Below are positions 2,641-18,048 of a DNA stretch of 32,000 bases, piece after piece. Both the position numbers and the translations under genes were made by a program. Under the pieces are notes generated by a model. That model searched no databases. It was given only the letters and a program-made list of their open reading frames with translations, and was not told the DNA's origin. The stretch is from Candidatus Nanosynbacter lyticus (GTDB lineage Bacteria; Patescibacteriota; Saccharimonadia; Saccharimonadales; Saccharimonadaceae), in the NCBI RefSeq assembly GCF_030253515.1, contig NZ_CP124549.1, positions 60,001 through 92,000 of the forward strand. Reading direction: 5' to 3'. Within the stretch, counting starts at the first letter, position 1. Each line of letters starts with the position of its first letter.

Positions 2641-3345
2641 CTAGGAAATCAGCGTGCCGACTATCTCGCCGCGAGCGGCCCGGGCGATGTTGCCGTCGGT
2701 GAGCAGGTCGCAGATGATGACCGGTTTGTTCTCCTCGGCGGCCAGTCCAATGGCGGCCTTGTCCATAACAGTGATGTCAGGATTGGTGAGAATTTGGTCG
2801 TAATGAAGACGATCGAACTTAATGGCGTCAGGGAATTTAGCTGGGTCTTTGTCGTATACACCGTCGACTTTCGTCGTTTTGATCACAACGTCGCACTGCA
2901 TCTCGAGGGCGAGGTTGAGAGCGGCGGTATCGGTAGTCAGGAAGGGTCGGCCAGTGCCACAGGCAACGATGACGATGCGGCCCTTCTTGATATGACTAAG
3001 GGCGCGGCGGAAGGTGTATTGGTCGATGAATTGATTAATCTCCACGGTGGACAGGGCGCGGGTCGGTAGGGCAGCGTCGTTGAACACATCGGCCAGAGCG
3101 ATGGCGTTCATCAGAGTAGAGAGCATGCCGATGTTATGGGCCGAGACGGGCTGGATACCGTGGCCAATGATTTGGTTGCCGCGGACATAATTGCCGCCGC
3201 CAACCATGATGACGACTTCGGCGCCGCTGCTCAAGGCCGGTTTGATTTGTTCGGCGATCCAACGAGCCCGCTTAGGATCGAAGCCGCTGGCGAACTCGCC
3301 CTGGAGCTGCTCGCCGGATAATTTGAGAAGGATACGTTTTGCCAT
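2641..3345 (-). CDS. pyrH: UMP kinase
   Basis: Motifs KRILLKLSGE, VVIMVGGGN, GRPFLTTDTAAL and KVDGVYDKDP. The ORF-track start at 3405 reads through the promoter. I place the start at ATG 3345 (MAKRILLKLSGE), 6 nt downstream of a TGcTACACT box. Confidence 0.93.
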   Translation of the reverse strand: MAKRILLKLSGEQLQGEFASGFDPKRARWIAEQIKPALSSGAEVVIMVGGGNYVRGNQIIGHGIQPVSAHNIGMLSTLMNAIALADVFNDAALPTRALSTVEINQFIDQYTFRRALSHIKKGRIVIVACGTGRPFLTTDTAALNLALEMQCDVVIKTTKVDGVYDKDPAKFPDAIKFDRLHYDQILTNPDITVMDKAAIGLAAEENKPVIICDLLTDGNIARAARGEIVGTLIS

Positions 3346-3388
3346 AACTTTAGTGTAGCATGCTGCAAGGAAGTGGTAAAATAGAAAC
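3346..3388. promoter_or_regulatory. 43-bp divergent spacer with two extended -10 boxes (pyrH and orn), both leaderless-type
   Basis: Minus strand: TGcTACACT (3360-3352), a 6-nt spacer, then ATG 3345. Plus strand: TGgTAAAAT (3374-3382), a 6-nt spacer, then ATG 3389. Neither spacer has room for a Shine-Dalgarno sequence. Confidence 0.6.
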
Positions 3389-3943
3389 ATGAAAGCGAAA
3401 TTCAAGCCGCAGCGAATTTTATGGCTGGATATGGAAATGACCGGGCTAGATCCGGTGGAGGATTTTCCGATTGAGGTGGCGATGATTGTGACCGACTGGG
3501 GGTTTACGGAAATTGCTCATTTTGAGGGTGCAGCGCACTGGTGTAGCAAGAAAATGCAAGCACGATTTGATAAGAATAAATCATTTTGGTATGGCGATGG
3601 TGCGGCTGCGCGAGAGCAGCTGATAGCGCAAAACAAGATCACCAAGACAACTAAGGCGCAGCTCGAGCGCGATATCTTGGCATTTTTGGATGAGTATTTT
3701 GATGATGCACCAATTTTATTGGCGGGTAATTCAATTCATCAAGACCGGCGCTTTATCGATCATTGGTTCAAGAAATTTTCAAAACGCCTCCACTACCGAA
3801 TGCTGGATGTTAGTGCCTGGAAGGTGGTATTTGAAGGTAAATATGGCAAAAAATTTGCCAAGCCAGAGGATCATCGAGCGCTGGAGGACATCCGCGGTAG
3901 TATTCAAGAATTACAATATTATTTGAAGAAGGTGAAACGCTAG
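3389..3943 (+). CDS. orn: Oligoribonuclease (DEDDh 3'-5' exoribonuclease)
   Basis: Motifs ILWLDMEMTGLDP (Exo I), LAGNSIHQDRRFI (Exo II), HYRMLDVS and HRALEDIRGSIQEL (Exo III with His). 184 aa is typical for Orn. Confidence 0.9.
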   Translation: MKAKFKPQRILWLDMEMTGLDPVEDFPIEVAMIVTDWGFTEIAHFEGAAHWCSKKMQARFDKNKSFWYGDGAAAREQLIAQNKITKTTKAQLERDILAFLDEYFDDAPILLAGNSIHQDRRFIDHWFKKFSKRLHYRMLDVSAWKVVFEGKYGKKFAKPEDHRALEDIRGSIQELQYYLKKVKR

Positions 3944-9219: not shown

Positions 9220-11754
9220 ATGAAACGTTTGGCGGTTATCGACGGAAAATCAGTGTTTTACCGAGGGTATTATGCCATGCCGGGGCTCAGTACGGCGGAT
9301 GGTACGCCGACTGGCGGGGTGTATGGGTTTGTAAGTTTGGCGATTGAGCTGATCAAAAAATTAGAGCCGGATTATGTGGCGGTGGCATGGGACAAGCGCG
9401 GCACCAACATCCGTAAGCGGCGGGAACTATATCCAGACTACAAGGCCGGTCGCAAGCCAGCACCGGATGATTTTTATCAGCAAATTCCGATTTTGATGGA
9501 ACTGCTGGATGCCTTTGGCTGGCCGCTGTATGAACTCGATGATTATGAGGCGGACGATATCATGGGCGCGTTTGCCAGGCAAGCGGAGGCGCGCGGCGTG
9601 CAGACCTGTCTGCTGACGTCGGATTTGGATGCGCTGCAATTGGTGTCGCCGCTGACCAAAGTCTACGCCATGAAAAATGGTCTGAGGAACATAGAGGAAT
9701 TTACGGCGGAATATTTTGAACAAAAATATGGCATTCGGACGGATCAGTTTTTGGATTTGAAGGCGCTGAAGGGTGATTCCAGCGACAATTTGCCGGGCGT
9801 GCCGGGAGTTGGTGAAAAGACAGCGGTGAAATTATTGCAAGCATATGACACGCTGGACGGCGTGTATGCGCATGTGGATGAGCAAACAGGCGCCCTACGG
9901 ACAAAGCTTGAAGCGGGCCGCGAGTCGGCGTATTTGACCAAGCAGGTGGCGGAGATTTGGACGGACGCACCGGTGGAGCTAGACTGGGAGGTGGCTGATG
10001 TTAACGACTGCGACTTTGCTAGAGTGGCGGAGATTTTGCGGAAACTGGAGTTTCATTCGCTGATTGGGCGATTGCCGAAGACAATGCAGGCGGTGGATGA
10101 GGCAGTGGAGACGGCGGAGTTGGAGTTGCCACGTGTTGAAAATTTACCGGCTGAGCCGCTGTTTGAGGCAGAAAATAGTATCTATATTGATCCATCGGAG
10201 CCGGACATAGTCTATATTAATTCCAAGCCTGGCGTGGCGTGGCGGGCGAAGATGAGTGAAATTGGCTGGTCGGTTTGGCAATTGTTGGCGCAGGGTGTGG
10301 TGATCGCGGTGGACGTCAAGGGGCTGTATCACGCGCTGGATACTCACGGTGTGACGGTGCGATTTCATGAGGTGTGGGATGTTGGGCAGGCGGCGTTTTT
10401 GATCGATCCACTGAGGCGCGACCGTCGTTTAGCGGCGCTGGCGGGCGATTTTTCTGAGGATAATTCCGCGTTGCGGCAGTTGGCGCGGCTTCGTCAAATT
10501 TACCGCCAGCAGCAGGATTATATGGCGGCGCATCAGCAGATTGCCAGGGTGCTTCGCGAGTTTGATTTTCCAGTGATTTGGCCGCTGTTTCAGATGGAAA
10601 AGCGCGGCATGAAGCTGGACACAGTGCTGCTTGAACAGATGGGTGAGGAGCTGAGGGCGGAGGTGAGCCAGCTTGAACAACAAATGTATACGATGGCTGG
10701 GCGTGAATTCAATGCCGCCAGCCCGGCACAGCTGTCTGAGGTGTTATTTACCAAACTTCAGCTGCCGACGACCGGTATCAAAAAAGGTAAAACCGGCTAT
10801 TCGACGGGGCAGAAAGAGCTGGATAAGCTGCGCGGGCGACACCCGATCATTGAGCTGATTGAGCGGTATCGGGAGCTGACTAAATTGATCAGCACCTACA
10901 TTGAAGCGCTGCCGAAATTGGTGGCTGAGGACGGTCGGATTCACACCACGTTTAATCAAAACGTCACCAGCACCGGGCGGTTGAGTAGTACCAATCCCAA
11001 CCTACAGAATATTCCGGTGCGCACAGAACTGGGCCGGAAGATTCGTCAGGCGTTTGTGCCCAGTCAGGGCAAGGTGTTTGTTGGTGTGGATTATTCACAA
11101 TTTGAGCTGCGGCTGGCGGCGGCACTGGCGGGCGATGAGCAGCTGATTAACGATTTTAATAGCGACGTGGATATTCATACCAAGACGGCGGCCGAGACCT
11201 ACGGCGTGCCAATGGCTGAGGTGACAAAATTGCAGCGGCGCGCGGCCAAGGTGATCAACTTTGGTGTGCTGTACGGCATGAGTCCGCACGGCTTGGCGGC
11301 AGCTACCGGCATGACCTTTACTGAGGCGAAACAGTTTATTGAACACTATTTTGCGGTACGCCAGCCAATCCGCCAGTATTTGGACACAATTTTAGTTCAA
11401 GCGCGTGAACGAGGTTTTGTCGAGACCTATTTTGGTCGGCGCCGACCAACGCCCGACGTTAAGTCGAGCAACTTTATGGTGCGTTCAGCGGCGGAGCGGG
11501 CGGCGATGAACATGCCGATTCAGGGAACGGAAGCGGATTTGATGAAGCTGGCGATGATTCGGCTGGAGGACAAGTTGGCTGGGCTGGCTGAGCCAGTCCT
11601 GCAGGTTCACGACTCAATTTTGGTGGAATGCGCGCCGGAAGACGCCGAGCGAGTCGGTGAAATCATGCGCAGAGAAATGGAAGGTATTTGTCCGGAGTTG
11701 CCAATTCGATTGAAGGTTGATATTGAAGTGGGGTATAATTGGGGTAGTCTATAA
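9220..11754 (+). CDS. polA: DNA polymerase I (5' nuclease + degenerate 3'-5' exo-like linker + family A polymerase)
   Basis: 5' nuclease/H3TH motifs (YKAGRK, DLKALKGDSSDNLPGVPGVGEKTA). Polymerase motif A VGVDYSQFELRLAA, motif B RRAAKVINFGVLYGM, motif C VLQVHDSILVE. The Exo I position reads AVDVKG rather than D.E, so proofreading is probably absent. Confidence 0.95.
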   Translation: MKRLAVIDGKSVFYRGYYAMPGLSTADGTPTGGVYGFVSLAIELIKKLEPDYVAVAWDKRGTNIRKRRELYPDYKAGRKPAPDDFYQQIPILMELLDAFGWPLYELDDYEADDIMGAFARQAEARGVQTCLLTSDLDALQLVSPLTKVYAMKNGLRNIEEFTAEYFEQKYGIRTDQFLDLKALKGDSSDNLPGVPGVGEKTAVKLLQAYDTLDGVYAHVDEQTGALRTKLEAGRESAYLTKQVAEIWTDAPVELDWEVADVNDCDFARVAEILRKLEFHSLIGRLPKTMQAVDEAVETAELELPRVENLPAEPLFEAENSIYIDPSEPDIVYINSKPGVAWRAKMSEIGWSVWQLLAQGVVIAVDVKGLYHALDTHGVTVRFHEVWDVGQAAFLIDPLRRDRRLAALAGDFSEDNSALRQLARLRQIYRQQQDYMAAHQQIARVLREFDFPVIWPLFQMEKRGMKLDTVLLEQMGEELRAEVSQLEQQMYTMAGREFNAASPAQLSEVLFTKLQLPTTGIKKGKTGYSTGQKELDKLRGRHPIIELIERYRELTKLISTYIEALPKLVAEDGRIHTTFNQNVTSTGRLSSTNPNLQNIPVRTELGRKIRQAFVPSQGKVFVGVDYSQFELRLAAALAGDEQLINDFNSDVDIHTKTAAETYGVPMAEVTKLQRRAAKVINFGVLYGMSPHGLAAATGMTFTEAKQFIEHYFAVRQPIRQYLDTILVQARERGFVETYFGRRRPTPDVKSSNFMVRSAAERAAMNMPIQGTEADLMKLAMIRLEDKLAGLAEPVLQVHDSILVECAPEDAERVGEIMRREMEGICPELPIRLKVDIEVGYNWGSL

Positions 11755-11766
11755 AAAGGAGGGTTA

Positions 11767-11774
11767 GACTAGTG
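11767..11774 (+). repeat. Left copy of the 8-bp direct repeat GACTAGTG bracketing the low-GC insertion
   Basis: An identical octamer recurs at 13623-13630. This copy overlaps the GTG start of the nuclease gene. Confidence 0.4.
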
Positions 11775-13544
11775 TCTGGATTTAAGGCTCGTGAAGCAAC
11801 ATTACAAAACTTATTTGACAGTGGTGACTATGATCAGTTTGTAATTCCGCATTATCAACGCAGCTATGTGTGGGGCCAGGACGAATTGGAGAATTTCTGG
11901 AATGATTTTATTGAACGTAAAGAAGTAGGACAGCTTTATTTACTCGGCTCAATCATTGTCAGTAGGACAAAACAAAAACGTTCTTTTGGGGTTGTGGATG
12001 GTCAACAACGTCTTATTACAAGCTCGGTGTTTATAACAGCCTTGAAAGATGTTTGGAGCGAAAAGTTTGGTCGTGATGAAGAATATTTCTCTTTAGAAAG
12101 ATTTATTAAAAAGAGGGTATTAGGGAGCAATAGTGCCATCTTTAAGATAGATGTTGCGGGCAGCTTGAAGCAATGCTATATTGACATGATTATTTCAGGA
12201 AGTACTAAAAAGGAGTATAAGAACGAAGATCAGAAAAATCTTCATCGTGCATATAATTACTTCAAAGATAAGTTACGTGACTCGTATGATGCAAATCAAG
12301 CTAATGATAATCAACGAAAAAAGTTGCTGCTACAAAAACTTGAGAATCTTCTAGATACTAATCTAGTGCTGGTTATTCTTGATGATGAGGACGATGCTTA
12401 CGAAGTGTTTGAGGGGTTCAATGCTCGTGGCGTAGATCTTTCTATCTCGGACTTGTTTAAAAACCTTTTTCTACAAAAGATAAAAGGAACAGAAGAAGAA
12501 AAAACAAGAGCGCTTGAAGAGTGGGATAATATTATTCAGATAGTTACAGAATTGCGGATCCCAAAGTTTACGATCAATACGTTTATTAGGTATTATTGGA
12601 TAAGAAACCACTCGTTTATAGGCGAGCGTCAGCTTTACAAGAAAATTAAGAAAGAAACGAAGAACTATAGGGAATTGCTATCTGATATGCATCAGATAGC
12701 AGAAGCTTTAAGGGTATTATTTAATGGATCACCGTATGAGATAAGGGATTTTCTTGGGCACCCGGAGGCGAAAGCAGAATATGCAAAATCTATAAGTGAC
12801 TCATTACGTGCTTTGAGGGTTATGAATACTCAGAGCTATATGGTTTGGCTGATGTCTATAGCAGCTAAGCGAAATAAAGAATTTATTAGTCTTAAGATGT
12901 TTGCTCGATCGCTTGGTCAAATAGAAAGATTTTCATTTAGGTATTTTGTAGTTTCAAAATTACCAGCAAATCGTGTTGAAAAAATGTATGCTAAATTTTC
13001 AAATGAATTATTTAAATTGTCCGATATTCGAGATAAACAAAGAATAGCAACTTTATTAGATAAGGGGATCTTGGACAGAATTGAACAAGATAAACTTCTA
13101 CCTCCAAGAGAACAGTTTATTGCTGATTTTGGTTTATTGTGCCTAAAACCTAATAATAATAAAAATCTTGTTCGGTACATTTTAACCCAAATAGAAAATC
13201 AGTTAAGCAGCGGCGAGAAGGGCGTTACTCAAGAAGTTGTTACAATTGAGCATATTATGCCCCAGAGGTTAAACAAGGGGTGGAATATATCGCAAACCGA
13301 TCATAAAAACTGTGTTAATATGCTTGGTAATTTGACAATCCTAAAAGGTGCGTCAAACTCATCTGCAAGCAATAAAGCAATTAACGAAAAGATTCGTCAT
13401 TTTAAAGATTCAGACTTAAAGATGAATGGTGATCTGGTTGATCTAATAAATAAAAAAAGCGATTGGGGTAAAGACGAAATAATAGAAAGACAAAATGCTT
13501 TTGCAGAAGCATCTGATGGTATCTGGTCTGTAGATAAAAGATAA
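11772..13544 (+). CDS. GmrSD-type nuclease (N-terminal DUF262/ParB-like NTPase domain + C-terminal DUF1524 His-Me/HNH nuclease domain); candidate type IV modification-dependent restriction enzyme
   Basis: DUF262 motifs FVIPHYQRSYVWGQDELENFWNDF and VVDGQQRL. DUF1524 motifs VTIEHIMPQ and NMLGNLTILKGASNSSASNK. GTG start lies 9 nt after a strong SD AGGAGG (11757-11762). GC is much lower than in the neighbours. Confidence 0.85.
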   Translation: MSGFKAREATLQNLFDSGDYDQFVIPHYQRSYVWGQDELENFWNDFIERKEVGQLYLLGSIIVSRTKQKRSFGVVDGQQRLITSSVFITALKDVWSEKFGRDEEYFSLERFIKKRVLGSNSAIFKIDVAGSLKQCYIDMIISGSTKKEYKNEDQKNLHRAYNYFKDKLRDSYDANQANDNQRKKLLLQKLENLLDTNLVLVILDDEDDAYEVFEGFNARGVDLSISDLFKNLFLQKIKGTEEEKTRALEEWDNIIQIVTELRIPKFTINTFIRYYWIRNHSFIGERQLYKKIKKETKNYRELLSDMHQIAEALRVLFNGSPYEIRDFLGHPEAKAEYAKSISDSLRALRVMNTQSYMVWLMSIAAKRNKEFISLKMFARSLGQIERFSFRYFVVSKLPANRVEKMYAKFSNELFKLSDIRDKQRIATLLDKGILDRIEQDKLLPPREQFIADFGLLCLKPNNNKNLVRYILTQIENQLSSGEKGVTQEVVTIEHIMPQRLNKGWNISQTDHKNCVNMLGNLTILKGASNSSASNKAINEKIRHFKDSDLKMNGDLVDLINKKSDWGKDEIIERQNAFAEASDGIWSVDKR

Positions 13545-13622
13545 ATACTGCCCTAAGTAAGGTAATATTAAGGTATTAGTATGCTAATCTGACTGTACTA
13601 AATAATGTAGGATATCCCTGGT

Positions 13623-13630
13623 GACTAGTG
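13623..13630 (+). repeat. Right copy of the 8-bp direct repeat GACTAGTG
   Basis: Identical to 11767-11774. It sits at the point where AT-rich insert sequence gives way to the promoter of the next native gene. Confidence 0.4.
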
Positions 13631-13647
13631 CAAAAAATCTAATATTA

Positions 13648-13656
13648 TGGTATAAT
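13648..13656 (+). promoter_or_regulatory. Extended -10 TGgTATAAT, leaderless-type
   Basis: A 6-nt spacer (CGCCCC) separates it from ATG 13663. Confidence 0.55.
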
Positions 13657-13662
13657 CGCCCC

Positions 13663-14310
13663 ATGAGGCGTACGTATAATTCTTTTAATTCCTTTTCTCG
13701 GTTTGTGCCGATTTTACTAGTCATCATTATCACTATCGTGACGATCGTCGCAATTATCAGCATCAGCCGGTCGATATTTGGTGGCGACGAGCAAAAACAG
13801 CAGCAGGAGACGACTGAGCAGAAAAAAAGCGACTTGCTACAAACCGACGAGAGTCGAGCGGTCAGACTGACAGTGCGTGGCCCGATCGTCGCTAATGAGA
13901 AATTCCGTTCGTATCAAATAACCATTGCGCCGTCGTCGCGGGTGATGACGACGTATGAAGGATATGTCGAGAAGCAGCTGAACACCAAGCAGCTGAATAA
14001 TAACGCCAAGGCTTATGAAGAGTTGGTGTACGCACTGGATAAGCGCAAGATGATGGAAGGGCGACAGCTGAGCGATGAGCAGAATGACCTGCGCGGTATT
14101 TGTGCGACGGGCAAGGTGTATAAATTTGAATTGTTGATGAATGGAACATCGATCAAGGCGCTGTGGACGTCGGATTGTAGTGGTTCTAAAGGCTCGGCGG
14201 TTGCTAATGTCGAGGAAATCGTCGATATGTTTATCAAGCAAATCCCTGACGGTAGCAAAATGGCCACCGCTATCGGGCTGTACCAGCGGGATACGCTGTT
14301 CAAGTTTTAG
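13663..14310 (+). CDS. Hypothetical single-pass membrane protein
   Basis: MRRTYNSFNSFSRF followed by a TM (VPILLVIIITIVTIVAIISI), then a polar ectodomain with two Cys. The ORF-track start GTG 13621 reads through the -10 box, so ATG 13663 is preferred. Confidence 0.75.
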   Translation: MRRTYNSFNSFSRFVPILLVIIITIVTIVAIISISRSIFGGDEQKQQQETTEQKKSDLLQTDESRAVRLTVRGPIVANEKFRSYQITIAPSSRVMTTYEGYVEKQLNTKQLNNNAKAYEELVYALDKRKMMEGRQLSDEQNDLRGICATGKVYKFELLMNGTSIKALWTSDCSGSKGSAVANVEEIVDMFIKQIPDGSKMATAIGLYQRDTLFKF

Positions 14311-14319
14311 GGGCGTCTG

Positions 14320-15207
14320 ATGCCGGAACTTCCCGAAGTCGAAACAGTTCGCAGCGGTTTGGCGGAGCTACTGCCGGGTCGAGTGGTGGCGCGAGTGGCA
14401 GTGTTTGATTCGCCAAAAAGCTTTCCGAATGCGCCGGCTGATGTTGAACAATTTTTGTATGGTGCGCGCGTGACGGCGGTGCGGCGGCGAGCGAAAGTAC
14501 TGATGATTGATCTGGACACTCGCTACTCGCTGGTGGTGCATTTGAAGATGACGGGGCAGCTTATCTTTCGTGGGCAAGAAAGTTTTGCTGGCGGGCATCC
14601 AAACGATAGTTTGATTGGCAAGCTGCCGGATCGGTCGACGCGGGTGCAGATTGATTTTATCGATGGGTCACGGCTGTTTTTCAACGATCAACGTAAGTTT
14701 GGTTGGGTAAAATTGCTGCCGACTGATGAGGTGAAGAACTTGCCGTTCATGCAAAAAGTAGGGCCGGAACCGCTTGATCCTCAGACACGCGCCGAGGATT
14801 TCATCCAGCGGATTCGTCACCGTCAAAACTCGATGATTAAGCCGGCTTTTCTTGACCAGACGGTGATCGCTGGGGTTGGCAATATTTATGCTGACGAGGC
14901 ATTGTGGGCGGCGCAGATTCATCCACAGACGCGGGTGAAAAACGTTAGCGACCAGCAGCTGAATACATTATTTACTGAGCTACGGCGCATCTTGCAACTC
15001 AGTATTGATCAGGGCGGCTCGACTGATAAAAATTACGTTGATGCCGAGGGTCGAAAAGGAAATTATCTAACATTTGCTCATGTGTTTCGCCGCGAAGGTC
15101 AAGCCTGCCATCGCCACCCCGACCAAGAAATCATCAAGCTAAAAGTCGGCGGTCGCGGTACGCATATTTGTCCAGTGTGCCAGAAGACACCGATATTTGA
15201 CAAATAG
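14320..15207 (+). CDS. mutM: Formamidopyrimidine-DNA glycosylase (Fpg/MutM)
   Basis: N-terminal MPELPEVETV (catalytic Pro2/Glu3), H2TH region (FLDQTVIAGVGNIYADEALW), and a C-terminal zinc finger CHRH...CPVC. ATG lies 9 nt after the upstream stop, so the gene is probably co-transcribed. Confidence 0.92.
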   Translation: MPELPEVETVRSGLAELLPGRVVARVAVFDSPKSFPNAPADVEQFLYGARVTAVRRRAKVLMIDLDTRYSLVVHLKMTGQLIFRGQESFAGGHPNDSLIGKLPDRSTRVQIDFIDGSRLFFNDQRKFGWVKLLPTDEVKNLPFMQKVGPEPLDPQTRAEDFIQRIRHRQNSMIKPAFLDQTVIAGVGNIYADEALWAAQIHPQTRVKNVSDQQLNTLFTELRRILQLSIDQGGSTDKNYVDAEGRKGNYLTFAHVFRREGQACHRHPDQEIIKLKVGGRGTHICPVCQKTPIFDK

Positions 15208-16166: not shown

Positions 16167-17078
16167 GTGATCTATCTCTTTTATGGCGACAACGAATTTG
16201 AGAAACGGGCGGCGCTTGCGGCGCTGGTTGGTGATATGGAGGTGGTGCGGCGTGACGGTGAAGAACTGACGGCCGCCGAGGTCTGTGAGGTGGTGATGGG
16301 GCAAAGTTTGTTCGCCGTCAAGCAAGCAGTGGTCATTACTGATGCGAGTCAGAATGTGGCTCTGTGGCGTGATTTGCCGGAGCTACTGGGTGATACGGCA
16401 ACCACGGTTGTCCTTCTGGAGACGAAGCTTGATAAGCGCACAAAAACGTATAAGTGGCTGCAAAGCCATGCCGAGGTAAGGGAATACGCTCATTTCACTG
16501 AACGTCAAAAGCCGCAGCTGAGCGCCTGGTGTGTTGAGCGGGCCACGGTGTATGGGGCCGTGTTGACAGAGGCACAGGCAACAACGTTGATCGATCGGTT
16601 GGGGTTTGACCAGCTGCGACTTGATTTGGTGTTGCAGCAGTTAGCCTTGGCTGGCGAGTCGAATGATGAGCTGATTGATATGCTGGTGCCGCTCGCTCCG
16701 GCTGAAAGTGCGTTTGAGCTGTTTGCGGCGATGATGGATGGTGACCAGGGAAAAGTGCGCGCGATCATTACCTATCTCGAGGCGGAGAGCGGTGATGATG
16801 GGGCGTACCAGACGCTGGGGTTGTTGGTTTCACAGTTGGTGCAGCTGAACGCGTTGGTGCTATCTGGTGGTGATACGGAGGCGGTGGCTCGTGATTTTGC
16901 GGCCCATCCGTATGCGCTAAGAAAGGTAGCGCCGTATGCAGCGCGGACGACATCGACGCAACTTGCGGTAATTAACTCTGCCTTGGCGCAGGCTGATGAA
17001 CATATGAAGACAACCCGTGTGTCGCCGTGGCTGTTGGTTGAGGCGGCGCTGATTGATGTGACTAGGATAGATCGCTAA
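16167..17078 (+). CDS. holA: DNA polymerase III delta subunit
   Basis: The N-terminus IYLFYGDNEFEK matches the typical HolA start (.YL.YGEE..L). Size (~300 aa) and the helical C-terminal domains fit. Overall similarity was judged by eye only. Confidence 0.72.
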   Translation: MIYLFYGDNEFEKRAALAALVGDMEVVRRDGEELTAAEVCEVVMGQSLFAVKQAVVITDASQNVALWRDLPELLGDTATTVVLLETKLDKRTKTYKWLQSHAEVREYAHFTERQKPQLSAWCVERATVYGAVLTEAQATTLIDRLGFDQLRLDLVLQQLALAGESNDELIDMLVPLAPAESAFELFAAMMDGDQGKVRAIITYLEAESGDDGAYQTLGLLVSQLVQLNALVLSGGDTEAVARDFAAHPYALRKVAPYAARTTSTQLAVINSALAQADEHMKTTRVSPWLLVEAALIDVTRIDR

Positions 17079-17101
17079 GCCAGCATAAGCCATTTATATG
17101 C

Positions 17102-17130
17102 TTGACAAAATAAGTATGATATAGTACAAT
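17102..17130 (+). promoter_or_regulatory. Sigma-70-type promoter for the 17175 gene
   Basis: TTGACA (17102-17107), a 17-nt spacer, then TACAAT (17125-17130). A ~40-nt leader with SD AAGGA follows. Confidence 0.6.
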
Positions 17131-17174
17131 GCAAACTACTATTAGTTTACTAGAAAGGTAAAAAGGAATTAGCC

Positions 17175-18032
17175 ATGGTCTTCAAAGATACGGAGCTTGA
17201 TACGCAGGGGTCTGATAAACAACAGTCTTTAGACGAACGGCAAAAGCAATGGATGGAGCTGGGGCTCGAGGAGAAAATGGCTAGAAAAGAAACAGAGATT
17301 AGCCGAGGAGCTATTGACAATGAGCCTGCGTTAGTGATCGCCGAGATGGCAAAGTATGTTGGCGAAGAGTGTCCTCATCTCGTTCAGGTATTTGAGGAGA
17401 CTAAACGTATGCGACTATCTGACAAACATCTGAGCTCATTAGCGGCAAATATAGACATAAGGTTAAATGAAACAAGACCCGAAGAATTGTATGAGATTGC
17501 CGGGGAGATCAAGGATAACTATGATACGTGGGCCGAGGGAAGGGCTGCACCGCCAATTGGCTCAAGAGGTCCACGTGGTGACGGTTATAAAACTCAGTAT
17601 TTGTATGAAAGTATGATGGGGAACGGGCTTCCTAAGGAATTTTTTGACAAAATGGCCGTGGCATCCGTTCATTTTAATTATGTTTATCACCCAGACTCTC
17701 CGCAGAGTCAGATATATCAACAAATGCGACTTAACTCAGGGCGAGTGTCTGACATTGATGAGCTACAGGAGCAAACACTGAGAATTGCTGATGAAAGTCT
17801 TTATGATGCGGTAAAGCTGGTTATAGGGAAAAAAGAGCATGTGATTCGTGGAGTTTTTTGTGAGACGGACAATTATTACCCACAGCTCGTAACTCGGATG
17901 ATAACAACGCTCGAGGTAGATAAGGGCTTGCCACAAGGGGTTCTGTTGGAGCGAGTTAATATGGATGACTTGTTCCATAGAATAAAGGAGGATCTTGGCC
18001 CGCGAACAAGCACTAGACTTTCTCGGTACTAG
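17175..18032 (+). CDS. Hypothetical soluble protein (orphan)
   Basis: 285-aa ORF with its own consensus promoter and SD. No TM and no recognised motif. GC is lower than in neighbours (23/60 in line 17641-17700). Confidence 0.7.
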   Translation: MVFKDTELDTQGSDKQQSLDERQKQWMELGLEEKMARKETEISRGAIDNEPALVIAEMAKYVGEECPHLVQVFEETKRMRLSDKHLSSLAANIDIRLNETRPEELYEIAGEIKDNYDTWAEGRAAPPIGSRGPRGDGYKTQYLYESMMGNGLPKEFFDKMAVASVHFNYVYHPDSPQSQIYQQMRLNSGRVSDIDELQEQTLRIADESLYDAVKLVIGKKEHVIRGVFCETDNYYPQLVTRMITTLEVDKGLPQGVLLERVNMDDLFHRIKEDLGPRTSTRLSRY

Positions 18033-18048
18033 GGCTCACAAATTGTAA

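What the first reader, a model, noticed from the sequence alone, without database searches (positions are those of the whole stretch)
11755..13630. Low-GC 1.86-kb insertion behind polA carrying a solitary GmrSD-type nuclease, bracketed by an 8-bp direct repeat
Seen in the sequence:
- GC drops sharply between the polA stop (11754) and the promoter of the next native gene (13648). Hand counts of single 60-nt lines give 20/60 (12241-12300) and 21/60 (13021-13080) inside, against 36/60 (11581-11640, polA) and 39/60 (14341-14400, mutM) outside.
- The only gene inside (11772-13544) has DUF262 motifs (IPHYQRSYVW, DGQQRL) and DUF1524 His-Me nuclease motifs (EHIMPQ, GNLTIL...N). This is the architecture of GmrSD/BrxU-type type IV restriction enzymes, which attack modified DNA.
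- It uses a strong SD (AGGAGG) and a GTG start, unlike most neighbours, which are leaderless-type.
- GACTAGTG occurs at both edges (11767-11774 and 13623-13630), as expected for a target-site duplication or a recombination seam.
- There is no integrase, transposase, methylase or partner gene.

Interpretation: this looks like a minimal single-gene defence cassette dropped precisely into a ~60-bp housekeeping spacer by an unidentified mechanism. A TATAAT inside the polA 3' end (11734-11739) could drive it.
Basis: partly seen in the sequence, partly recalled or inferred. Interest (0 to 1): 0.7.

Follow-up and report, generated by a model that had tools for sequence, protein, structure and literature searches.

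The report
polA-linked GmrSD nuclease cassette in Saccharibacteria
A single AT-rich gene for a GmrSD/HEC-06-type DNA nuclease sits right behind the DNA polymerase I gene of an oral Saccharibacterium; it is a real present-or-absent cassette, but it spreads by ordinary homologous recombination, and the 8-bp "target duplication" is a chance match.

Summary
The raw observations hold. GC falls from about 0.54 to 0.34. The only gene inside (11772-13544) has GmrSD_N and GmrSD_C domains, with intact DGQQR and EH…N…N motifs. GACTAGTG occurs at both stated positions. The interpretation needs correcting in three ways.

1. Eight closely related genomes have empty sites. They show that the foreign tract starts inside polA at about 11712, replacing its last ~14 codons, and ends at about 13645.
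2. No empty site contains GACTAGTG. A shared 8-mer between the two edge zones is an 8-11% chance event, so it is not a target-site duplication.
3. The placement is not arbitrary. Six of the seven more distant homologues whose context I read (45-71% identical) also lie 9-23 nt behind polA in divergent Saccharibacteria, and a 97% allele occupies this same locus.

Among nine carriers the cassette has 4 variable sites in 2 kb, while the flanks differ by 5-14%. Near-identity ends at different points in different carriers. That is the signature of homologous recombination, and Saccharibacteria are experimentally naturally competent.

The replaced polA tail carries a conserved TTGAAG-N18-TATAAT promoter-like site.

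Verdict: a new member of a known defence family in an interesting but explicable population-genetic setting.

The parts
11712..11754 (+). Replaced 3' tail of polA (last ~14 codons, ...LKVDIEVGYNWGSL*). It is part of the imported tract.
   Evidence: GC is 0.37 against 0.51 for the preceding 100 nt. The tail is 49-53% identical to the tails of empty alleles (…LKVDVGVGLHWDEV*), about 70% (my count) to the L092 tail, and 91% to L183.
11710..11739 (+). Sigma-70-like promoter candidate TTGAAG-N18-TATAAT embedded in the polA tail.
   Evidence: It is the best consensus match in 11500-13800, at 10 of 12. Both hexamers are kept in L183 and L092 and are absent in empty alleles (CTAAAA…CTACAC). Its function is inferred, not shown.
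11758..11763 (+). Shine-Dalgarno sequence AGGAGG, 8 nt before the GTG start.
   Evidence: Read directly. L092 has AAGGAGG before an ATG at the aligned position.
11772..13544 (+). GmrSD/HEC-06-like nuclease gene (590 aa): DUF262 NTPase domain, helical linker, DUF1524 His-Me nuclease domain.
   Evidence: Pfam hits for both domains. PADLOC HEC-06 hit at 298 bits over the full length. DGQQR 76-80, EH 493-494, N520, N529 and N534 are invariant in the clade. The AlphaFold model (pLDDT 83) best matches DndI, SspE and BrxU.
13545..13645 (+). AT-rich 3' non-coding tail of the cassette plus a diverged copy of the native spacer.
   Evidence: Alignment to empty sites resumes only at GGTGA…GTGCAAAA and becomes clean at ATGGTATAAT. 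There is no terminator and no Rfam hit.
11767..11774 (+). Left GACTAGTG copy. It overlaps the GTG start codon and is a chance match.
   Evidence: L092 has GGAGGCGTATG at this position. Chance of a shared 8-mer is 8-11%.
13623..13630 (+). Right GACTAGTG copy. It is a diverged form of the native spacer (GGTGAGTG or AATAAATG in empty sites).
13651..13665 (+). Extended -10 box (TGgTATAAT) and ATG of the native membrane-protein gene, which looks leaderless. This is the right-hand homology arm.
   Evidence: The sequence is conserved in filled and empty alleles.
11272..11711 (+). Left hitch-hiking shoulder: native-type polA sequence co-transferred with the cassette.
   Evidence: Diversity (pi) is about 0.02 among carriers, against 0.06-0.18 among empty alleles and 0.05-0.14 further out. 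Tract ends lie at 11151, 11244, 11274 and 11661.
13646..14471 (+). Right hitch-hiking shoulder, covering the membrane-protein gene and the start of mutM.
   Evidence: Diversity (pi) is 0.01-0.04 among carriers, against 0.065-0.127 among empty alleles. Tract ends lie at 13724 and 13962.

Best explanation
The window comes from an oral Saccharibacterium (TM7, 'oral taxon 488' group). Positions ~11712-13645 form an accessory allele of the polA-to-membrane-gene junction. The allele has four pieces:
- a divergent, AT-rich replacement of the last ~14 polA codons, which carries a promoter-like TTGAAG-N18-TATAAT;
- a Shine-Dalgarno sequence;
- one gene for a GmrSD/HEC-06-type enzyme, with a DUF262 NTPase domain and a DUF1524 His-Me nuclease domain;
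- about 100 nt of non-coding tail.

No mobile-element machinery inserted it. It is exchanged between strains and sister species by homologous recombination. The crossovers fall in polA on the left and in the membrane-gene promoter, membrane gene or mutM on the right. The most likely route is natural transformation.

The allele ultimately derives from a Saccharibacteria-specific GmrSD clade that has long resided directly behind polA.

By homology, the protein acts as a stand-alone, NTP-dependent nuclease against foreign DNA, probably modified phage DNA.

Shown: the anatomy, the empty sites, the boundaries, the diversity trough, the variable tract ends, the conserved polA linkage, and the domain and motif integrity.

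Inferred: transformation as the route, use of the promoter, and the enzyme's substrate and antiphage role.
For: Empty sites:
- L011 (93.5-95% nt identical in the flanks) and seven GTDB species representatives have polA stop + 46 bp + membrane gene.

Boundaries:
- The polA tail is 49-53% identical to native tails but about 70% to the tail of L092, which carries a 71% GmrSD homologue. The spacer re-aligns at GTGCAAAA…ATGGTATAAT.

Recombination signature:
- Nine carriers have 4 segregating sites across 11672-13671. Diversity (pi) is 0.05-0.14 in the far flanks and 0.01-0.04 in the shoulders. Empty alleles show no such trough.
- Near-identity to the window ends at four different left positions and two different right positions.
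- Carriers are no closer to the window in their flanks (92-95%) than the empty L011 is.
- A second haplotype, L183, is 86-93% identical in the 5' part of the gene and 99.5-100% in the 3' part, so it is a mosaic.

Route:
- Saccharibacteria take up DNA through ComEC and integrate cassettes flanked by ~1-kb homology arms (PMC10633639).

Conserved linkage:
- Homologues of 71, 53, 49, 46, 46 and 45% identity all lie 9-23 nt after polA, in genomes whose polA C-terminus is only ~58% identical to the window's.

Function:
- Pfam and PADLOC hits, invariant catalytic motifs and fold matches to DndI, SspE and BrxU.
- HEC-06 is a stand-alone antiphage gene that needs its DGQQR and EH residues (bioRxiv 10.1101/2024.01.29.577857).
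Against: - No donor with a nearly identical cassette in a different, AT-rich genome was found, so the source lineage is unknown.
- The right-hand junction is short and diverged. An illegitimate or microhomology join at the first acquisition cannot be excluded.
- The same diversity pattern would arise if one carrier lineage kept the cassette while its flanks were overwritten by imports from non-carriers. That is still homologous recombination, but in the opposite direction.
- All the data are metagenome assemblies, which can blend strains.
- The persistently low GC of the gene in every lineage (0.33-0.44, against flanks of 0.35-0.58) fits poorly with long vertical residence and is unexplained.
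- No expression or activity data exist.
Confidence: 0.75

Rival explanations
1. A tiny mobile cassette was inserted by a transposition-like or site-specific event into the polA-to-membrane-gene spacer, duplicating GACTAGTG.
For: The octamer is present exactly at 11767-11774 and 13623-13630, occurs nowhere else in the window, and is also present at both ends in haplotype L183.
Against: - Eight empty sites have GGTGAGTG, GGTGAGCG or AATAAATG instead of the octamer.
- The left copy contains the gene's own start codon and lies downstream of its SD. A duplication there would mean the gene arrived without a start codon.
- The polA tail upstream of the left copy is also foreign.
- L092, which is collinear and 70% identical, lacks the octamer.
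- The chance of such a match is 8-11%.
- There is no recombinase in the window neighbourhood and there are no terminal inverted repeats.
Confidence: 0.03
2. polA-GmrSD is an ancestral, vertically inherited gene pair of Saccharibacteria. On this view the 'empty' relatives are deletion derivatives and the window simply retains the old state.
For: - Seven of eight clade members examined, the window included, sit directly after polA across deep divergence.
- Window versus L092: GmrSD is 70% nt identical, similar to the membrane gene (75%) and mutM (74%).
- A 97% allele with core-like divergence exists at the same locus.
Against: - None of the 80 GTDB species representatives nearest by polA has it.
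- Empty alleles have a different polA tail, so a simple deletion cannot produce them.
- The window haplotype is invariant across backgrounds that differ by 5-14%.
- The GmrSD and polA pairwise identity rankings disagree among L094, L095 and L176.
- GC3 has not moved towards the host value.
- The rival is probably true for the deep history of the clade, but not for how this window's copy came to be where it is.
Confidence: 0.15
3. The enzyme is not primarily antiphage. On this view it belongs to a polA-linked DNA and nucleotide hygiene neighbourhood that processes modified or damaged incoming DNA in an organism dependent on scavenged nucleotides.
For: - The slot after polA in other Saccharibacteria holds NUDIX, dUTPase, HAD hydrolase and MazG-like genes.
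- Homologues are followed by dUTPase/DCD, NUDIX or dCMP deaminase genes.
- mutM is always nearby.
Against: - The gene shows presence/absence polymorphism and a rapid sweep-like spread, which is typical of defence genes.
- The best full-length profile match is to the experimentally antiphage HEC-06.
- A neighbourhood of housekeeping genes may be coincidental in a ~0.8-Mb genome with very few intergenic slots.
Confidence: 0.07

Closest known systems
HEC-06 (GmrSD-like single-gene antiphage system; Payne et al., bioRxiv 10.1101/2024.01.29.577857)
   Same: - Full-length match to the PADLOC HEC-06 profiles (298, 293 and 272 bits; residues 4-588).
- Same size.
- DGQQR motif, and EHIMP here against EHICP in HEC-06.
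- Acts as a single gene without a partner.
   Different: - The tested HEC-06 was found embedded in Hma/RM systems of Proteobacteria. This one is solitary behind polA in a Patescibacterium.
- Activity here is untested.
- Identity to the tested protein was not measured.
GmrSD (Eco94GmrSD/EcoCTGmrSD) and BrxU type IV restriction enzymes
   Same: DUF262 + helical linker + DUF1524 architecture. Fold match to BrxU 7p9k (E 4e-6).
   Different: - Only about 12% identity to BrxU.
- PADLOC's type IV model matches only residues 192-304 (37 bits).
- There is no BREX context.
- Preference for hmC or glucosyl-hmC DNA is unknown.
DndI and SspE (phosphorothioate-sensing DUF262/DUF1524 effectors)
   Same: These are the closest solved structures: 9jfl DndI (sequence E 2.5e-7, Foldseek E 5e-17) and SspE 7drs/6jiv.
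   Different: Both work with dnd or ssp modification genes. None of these is in the 32-kb window or in the related loci. Identity is 14-19%.
Accessory genes exchanged by flanking homology in naturally competent bacteria (gene-specific sweeps; core-gene-flanked hotspots)
   Same: - A cassette between conserved core genes.
- A diversity trough with shoulders.
- Variable tract ends.
- No recombinase.
   Different: - The slot holds one gene, not an island.
- The other occupants are nucleotide-metabolism genes rather than defence genes.
- The left seam lies inside an essential gene whose tail is swapped along with the cassette.

Membership tests
GmrSD family (type IV restriction, DUF262-DUF1524) | N-terminal DUF262/GmrSD_N domain above the Pfam gathering score | tested here: met
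   PF03235 at 113.2 bits (cutoff 33.2), residues 12-234.
GmrSD family (type IV restriction, DUF262-DUF1524) | C-terminal DUF1524/GmrSD_C His-Me nuclease domain above the gathering score | tested here: met
   PF07510 at 94.5 bits (cutoff 23), residues 446-579.
GmrSD family (type IV restriction, DUF262-DUF1524) | DGQQR NTPase motif and (D/E)H…N…N nuclease motif intact | tested here: met
   D76 G77 Q78 Q79 R80, E493 H494, N520, N529 and N534 are invariant in the 12-sequence clade alignment.
GmrSD family (type IV restriction, DUF262-DUF1524) | Cleaves modified (hmC, glucosyl-hmC or 5mC) DNA and spares unmodified DNA | not testable with these tools
   This needs biochemistry or phage assays.
HEC-06 subfamily | Full-length match to the HEC-06 profile HMMs, better than to other GmrSD-like profiles | tested here: met
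   PDLC04154 at 297.9 bits over residues 4-588. The next family, 'Orf5', scores 236 bits, SspE 61 bits and mREase_IV 37 bits.
HEC-06 subfamily | Stand-alone antiphage activity | not testable with these tools
   Shown for the E. coli-tested homologue only.
SspE/DndI PT-sensing effectors | Genetic linkage to sspABCD or dndBCDE modification genes | tested here: not met
   No such genes occur in the window or in the ±10-kb flanks of 10 carrier loci. The rest of the genome was not seen.
BrxU | Embedded in a BREX (or Hma/RM) locus | tested here: not met
   The neighbours are polA, a membrane protein and mutM.
Transposon / insertion element with target-site duplication | The direct repeat at both ends is present once in the empty site | tested here: not met
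   Eight empty sites lack GACTAGTG. Chance of the match is 8-11%.
Transposon / insertion element with target-site duplication | Own recombinase or terminal inverted repeats | tested here: not met
   The cassette holds a single ORF. There are no edge inverted repeats.
Defence island / hotspot | The same slot holds different defence systems in related genomes | tested here: not met
   The slot is variable, but its other occupants are NUDIX, dUTPase, HAD, LMW phosphatase and methyltransferase genes. Those proteins were not scanned against PADLOC.

The most novel reading that the evidence does not exclude
The polA-GmrSD pair is a selected two-gene arrangement specific to Saccharibacteria. The nuclease gene's promoter is written into the polA coding tail, so that tail and gene travel as one unit. 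Adjacency to an essential, highly conserved gene serves as a built-in homology arm, letting a recombinase-free defence gene spread by transformation across species boundaries. Alternatively, or additionally, the adjacency couples the nuclease functionally to Pol I and nucleotide-sanitising enzymes in a nucleotide-auxotrophic epibiont.
Probability: 0.2. Interest if true: 0.55.

Novelty: new member of a known kind. Interest (0 to 1): 0.35.

Why it matters
Saccharibacteria and other Patescibacteria mostly lack CRISPR, and their defences are poorly known. This case shows a HEC-06-like GmrSD nuclease circulating in human oral TM7 populations. It also gives a clean natural example of a defence gene crossing roughly species-level divergence purely by flanking homology, consistent with the recently demonstrated natural competence of these bacteria.

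The conserved position behind polA and the promoter-bearing swapped polA tail are small but testable additions. For genome annotation the lesson is practical. A low-GC, single-gene 'insertion' with a short edge repeat need not be a mobile element, and the real seam can lie inside the neighbouring essential gene.

Tried and rejected
- Target-site-duplication model: rejected.
- Phage origin: a scan of IMG/VR with the clade alignment found no relative.
- JGI metagenome scan with the clade alignment: besides two copies of the same cassette, it returned only homologues of ≤31% identity, none next to polA. It did not reveal a donor.
- NCBIfam: no model matched the protein or the membrane-protein neighbour.
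- Rfam on 11000-14500: no hit.
- Intrinsic terminator after the gene: none found.
- Repeat search: only short, chance-level pairs. A 14-nt near-repeat, TAATATTAAGGTAT (13563) and TAATATTATGGTAT (13640), may be a relic of a duplicated promoter, but about one such pair is expected by chance in 2 kb by my estimate.
- 'Defence hotspot' idea: the slot is variable but filled with nucleotide-metabolism genes.
- Literature: no paper in the library mentions GmrSD together with Saccharibacteria. The 'gene-specific sweep' search gave nothing relevant.
- Error corrected: my first tblastn with the membrane protein used a query shifted by one base, so its identity values are invalid.
Full report
**1. What is at the coordinates**

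The window belongs to an oral-type Saccharibacterium (TM7).
- Its polA C-terminal 399 residues are 92-96% identical to uncultured Saccharibacteria genomes, and 94% to 'Candidatus Saccharibacteria bacterium oral taxon 488' CP128407. They are about 86% identical to Nanosynbacter.
- GC in 300-nt windows is 0.53-0.57 over polA. It falls to 0.31-0.39 from about 11750 to 13700 and returns to about 0.50.
- The gene's GC3 is 0.31, against 0.625 for polA.
- The only long ORF inside is 11772-13544 (GTG start, 590 aa).

**2. The protein**

Domains and motifs:
- Pfam gives GmrSD_N (113 bits) and GmrSD_C (94.5 bits), both far above their gathering scores.
- PADLOC's best models are the full-length HEC-06 profiles (298 bits, residues 4-588). 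Next come 'Orf5', SspE and a type IV model.
- In an alignment with its eleven nearest database relatives, DGQQR (76-80), EH (493-494), N520, N529 and N534 are invariant.

Structure:
- An AlphaFold model built on that alignment has mean pLDDT 83.
- Its best PDB matches are DndI (9jfl, E 5e-17), SspE (7drs, 6jiv) and BrxU (7p9k). Nothing unrelated scores below E 0.1.
- Sequence search of the PDB agrees.

HEC-06 is a GmrSD-like protein shown to protect E. coli from phages on its own. That protection is lost in DGQQR (Q79A, R80A) and EH (E471A, H472A) mutants (bioRxiv 10.1101/2024.01.29.577857, read).

So the domain assignment is right. The most precise label is 'HEC-06-like member of the GmrSD family'. 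Substrate specificity cannot be inferred.

**3. Empty sites and true boundaries**

The identical 590-aa protein is on record in 41 collection blocks. In all 10 places shown (of 23 contigs read), the order is polA, GmrSD, 215-aa membrane protein, mutM.

Looking up the window's own mutM protein returned L011, a contig without the gene.
- There, polA's stop is followed by 46 bp (ccggggcggtgagcgcaaaactgacagaatatggtataatcaaccc) and then the membrane-protein ATG.
- Seven GTDB species representatives have the same empty arrangement: L014, L023, L025, L026, L028, L030 and L033.

- BLASTN of the window against L011 breaks at 11696 and resumes at 13646.
- Multiple alignment puts the left break at about 11700-11712, inside polA.
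- Filled alleles end …PIRLKVDIEVGYNWGSL*. Empty alleles end …PIALKVDVGVGLHWDEV*.
- The last 43 nt have GC 0.37 and are 49-53% identical to native tails. The preceding 100 nt are 75-88% identical.
- On the right, the empty spacer reads GGTGAGTGCAAAACTGACAGAATATGGTATAAT. The filled one reads GGTGACTAGTGCAAAAAATCTAATATTATGGTATAAT. This is a diverged homologue of the spacer, not a clean junction.

So the foreign tract is about 11712-13645, and it includes a substitute polA tail.

**4. The 8-bp repeat**

The repeat is a chance match, for four reasons.
- None of the eight empty sites contains GACTAGTG.
- The left copy overlaps the gene's GTG start and lies downstream of its SD.
- In L092, a collinear locus with a 71% homologue, the aligned sequence is GGAGGCGTATG, without the octamer.
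- A shared 8-mer between the two edge zones arises in 7.8% of shuffles and in 10.6-11.3% of comparable zone pairs from the window.

**5. How it moves**

I aligned nine carrier loci: the window plus L001-L008.
- Across 11672-13671 there are 4 segregating sites (pi about 0.000-0.006).
- The shoulders (11272-11671 and 13672-14471) have pi 0.01-0.04.
- Regions further out have pi 0.05-0.14.
- Seven empty alleles aligned over the same coordinates show no trough (pi 0.06-0.18 in the shoulders).

Relative to the window, near-identity ends at 11151, 11244, 11274 or 11661 on the left. It ends at 13724 or 13962 on the right, depending on the carrier.

In the flanks, carriers are 92-95% identical to the window. 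That is no closer than the empty L011 at 93.5-95%.

A second haplotype, L183 (97% protein identity), sits at the same locus.
- It has the same kind of polA tail and both octamers.
- It is 86-93% identical over 11572-12371 but 99.5-100% over 13172-13771, so it is a mosaic within the gene.

Variable endpoints, hitch-hiking shoulders, mosaicism and decoupling from the background are what homologous recombination produces. A site-specific element does not produce them.

Saccharibacteria are naturally competent. ComEC-dependent integration of cassettes flanked by ~1-kb homology arms has been shown experimentally (PMC10633639).

The data cannot tell whether the cassette entered new backgrounds or the backgrounds recombined around it. 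Both amount to one recently derived haplotype plus flank recombination.

**6. The position is not arbitrary**

After the protein's own 90% cluster (98 members), the homology search finds a small clade at 45-71% identity. It then drops to 35% and to about 30%.

I retrieved contexts for the clade members.
- L092 (71%), L093 (53%), L094 (49%), L095 (46%), L176 (46%) and L179 (45%) all place the gene 9-23 nt after the polA stop, on the same strand. In those genomes the polA C-terminus is only about 58% identical to the window's.
- The exception is L181 (48%). There the gene follows what looks by eye like a tRNA 3' end and a terminator hairpin; I did not run a tRNA scan.
- The 35% relative follows pyrG.
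- None of about 80 more distant homologues from the metagenome scan is near polA.

L092 is collinear with the window over the whole locus. Nucleotide identity is 70% through the polA tail and GmrSD, 75% in the membrane gene and 74% in mutM. Its polA tail shares GYNW.

The clade therefore appears to have lived behind polA for a long time. The window's copy is best seen as an allele introgressed from a relative that already had that arrangement, which explains why a polA tail came with it.

Against simple vertical descent:
- None of the 80 nearest GTDB species representatives carries the gene.
- The pairwise identity rankings for GmrSD and polA disagree among L094, L095 and L176.

**7. Expression**

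The replaced polA tail contains TTGAAG-N18-TATAAT (11710-11739).
- It is the best promoter-like match in the region, at 10 of 12. The number of matches in the region is not above the shuffle expectation.
- Both hexamers are retained in L183 and in L092, despite 30% divergence.
- They are absent from empty alleles, which encode the same Leu-Lys with CTAAAA and have LH (CTACAC) instead of YN (TATAAT).

This gives a rationale for the tail and the gene travelling together, but it is an inference.

Co-transcription with polA (17-nt gap) is equally possible.

Native genes here are a mixture of leaderless-looking genes (a -10 box 6-8 nt before the ATG, as at 13651-13663) and SD-led genes.

**8. Unexplained**

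In every lineage examined the gene is AT-richer than its flanks. Gene GC is 0.33-0.44 against flanks of 0.35-0.58, a deficit of about 2-20 points that is smallest in L181 and 6-20 points in all the others.

More distant family members show a mean deficit of only 4 points.

A long residence next to polA should have let GC3 drift towards the host value. Continuing import from an unseen AT-rich reservoir, or selection for AT-rich sequence, would each explain the pattern. Neither was tested.

**9. Verdict**

The finding is real and the gene call is right. The proposed mechanism (precise drop-in with an 8-bp duplication) is wrong.

It is a new member of a known defence family, in a phylum where defences are little studied. 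It spreads by flank homology and has a conserved, unexplained attachment to polA.

Noticed in passing
window 17058-18041 (ORF 17175-18032): This is a second presence/absence polymorphism. The 285-aa gene has no Pfam hit on record (precomputed annotation) and lower GC (0.42-0.47). It is absent from L004, L006 and L010. Where it is present, it is only 67-95% identical.
   Followed up: partly
window 14320-15207 (mutM): mutM exists as 295-aa and 325-aa alleles about 86% identical among otherwise similar strains. This indicates mosaic recombination through the whole region.
   Followed up: no
L012, L013, L015, L017-L020, L022, L024, L031, L034, L059, L064 (just after polA): This is a third allele of the same slot. 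A 136-aa NUDIX gene starts 1-2 nt after the polA stop, and polA has yet another tail (…QIGKNWEET*). In more distant Saccharibacteria the slot holds dUTPase, HAD hydrolase, LMW phosphatase or a methyltransferase.
   Followed up: partly
L181/L182 1-340: The one clade member not behind polA (48% identical) follows what looks by eye like a tRNA 3' end plus a terminator hairpin, then about 250 nt of AT-rich DNA. The contig is AT-rich throughout. It may be an island or the AT-rich reservoir; no tRNA scan was run.
   Followed up: no
L093, L094, L095, L179 downstream of the GmrSD homologue: The homologues are followed by dUTPase/dCTP-deaminase, NUDIX or dCMP-deaminase genes. This is a recurrent nucleotide-metabolism neighbourhood.
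   Followed up: no
window 13563-13576 and 13640-13653: A 14-nt near-repeat, TAATATTAAGGTAT and TAATATTATGGTAT, lies 77 nt apart. The second copy is the membrane-gene promoter. The first could be a relic promoter in the cassette's 3' tail, or chance.
   Followed up: no
L009 805-1548 versus window ~2641-3405: In one carrier the minus-strand amino-acid-kinase gene is replaced by two small plus-strand ORFs (163 and 61 aa).
   Followed up: no
L183 5847-6519: In the second GmrSD haplotype the membrane-protein gene is called as two fragments (85 and 121 aa). This suggests a frameshift or an assembly error.
   Followed up: no
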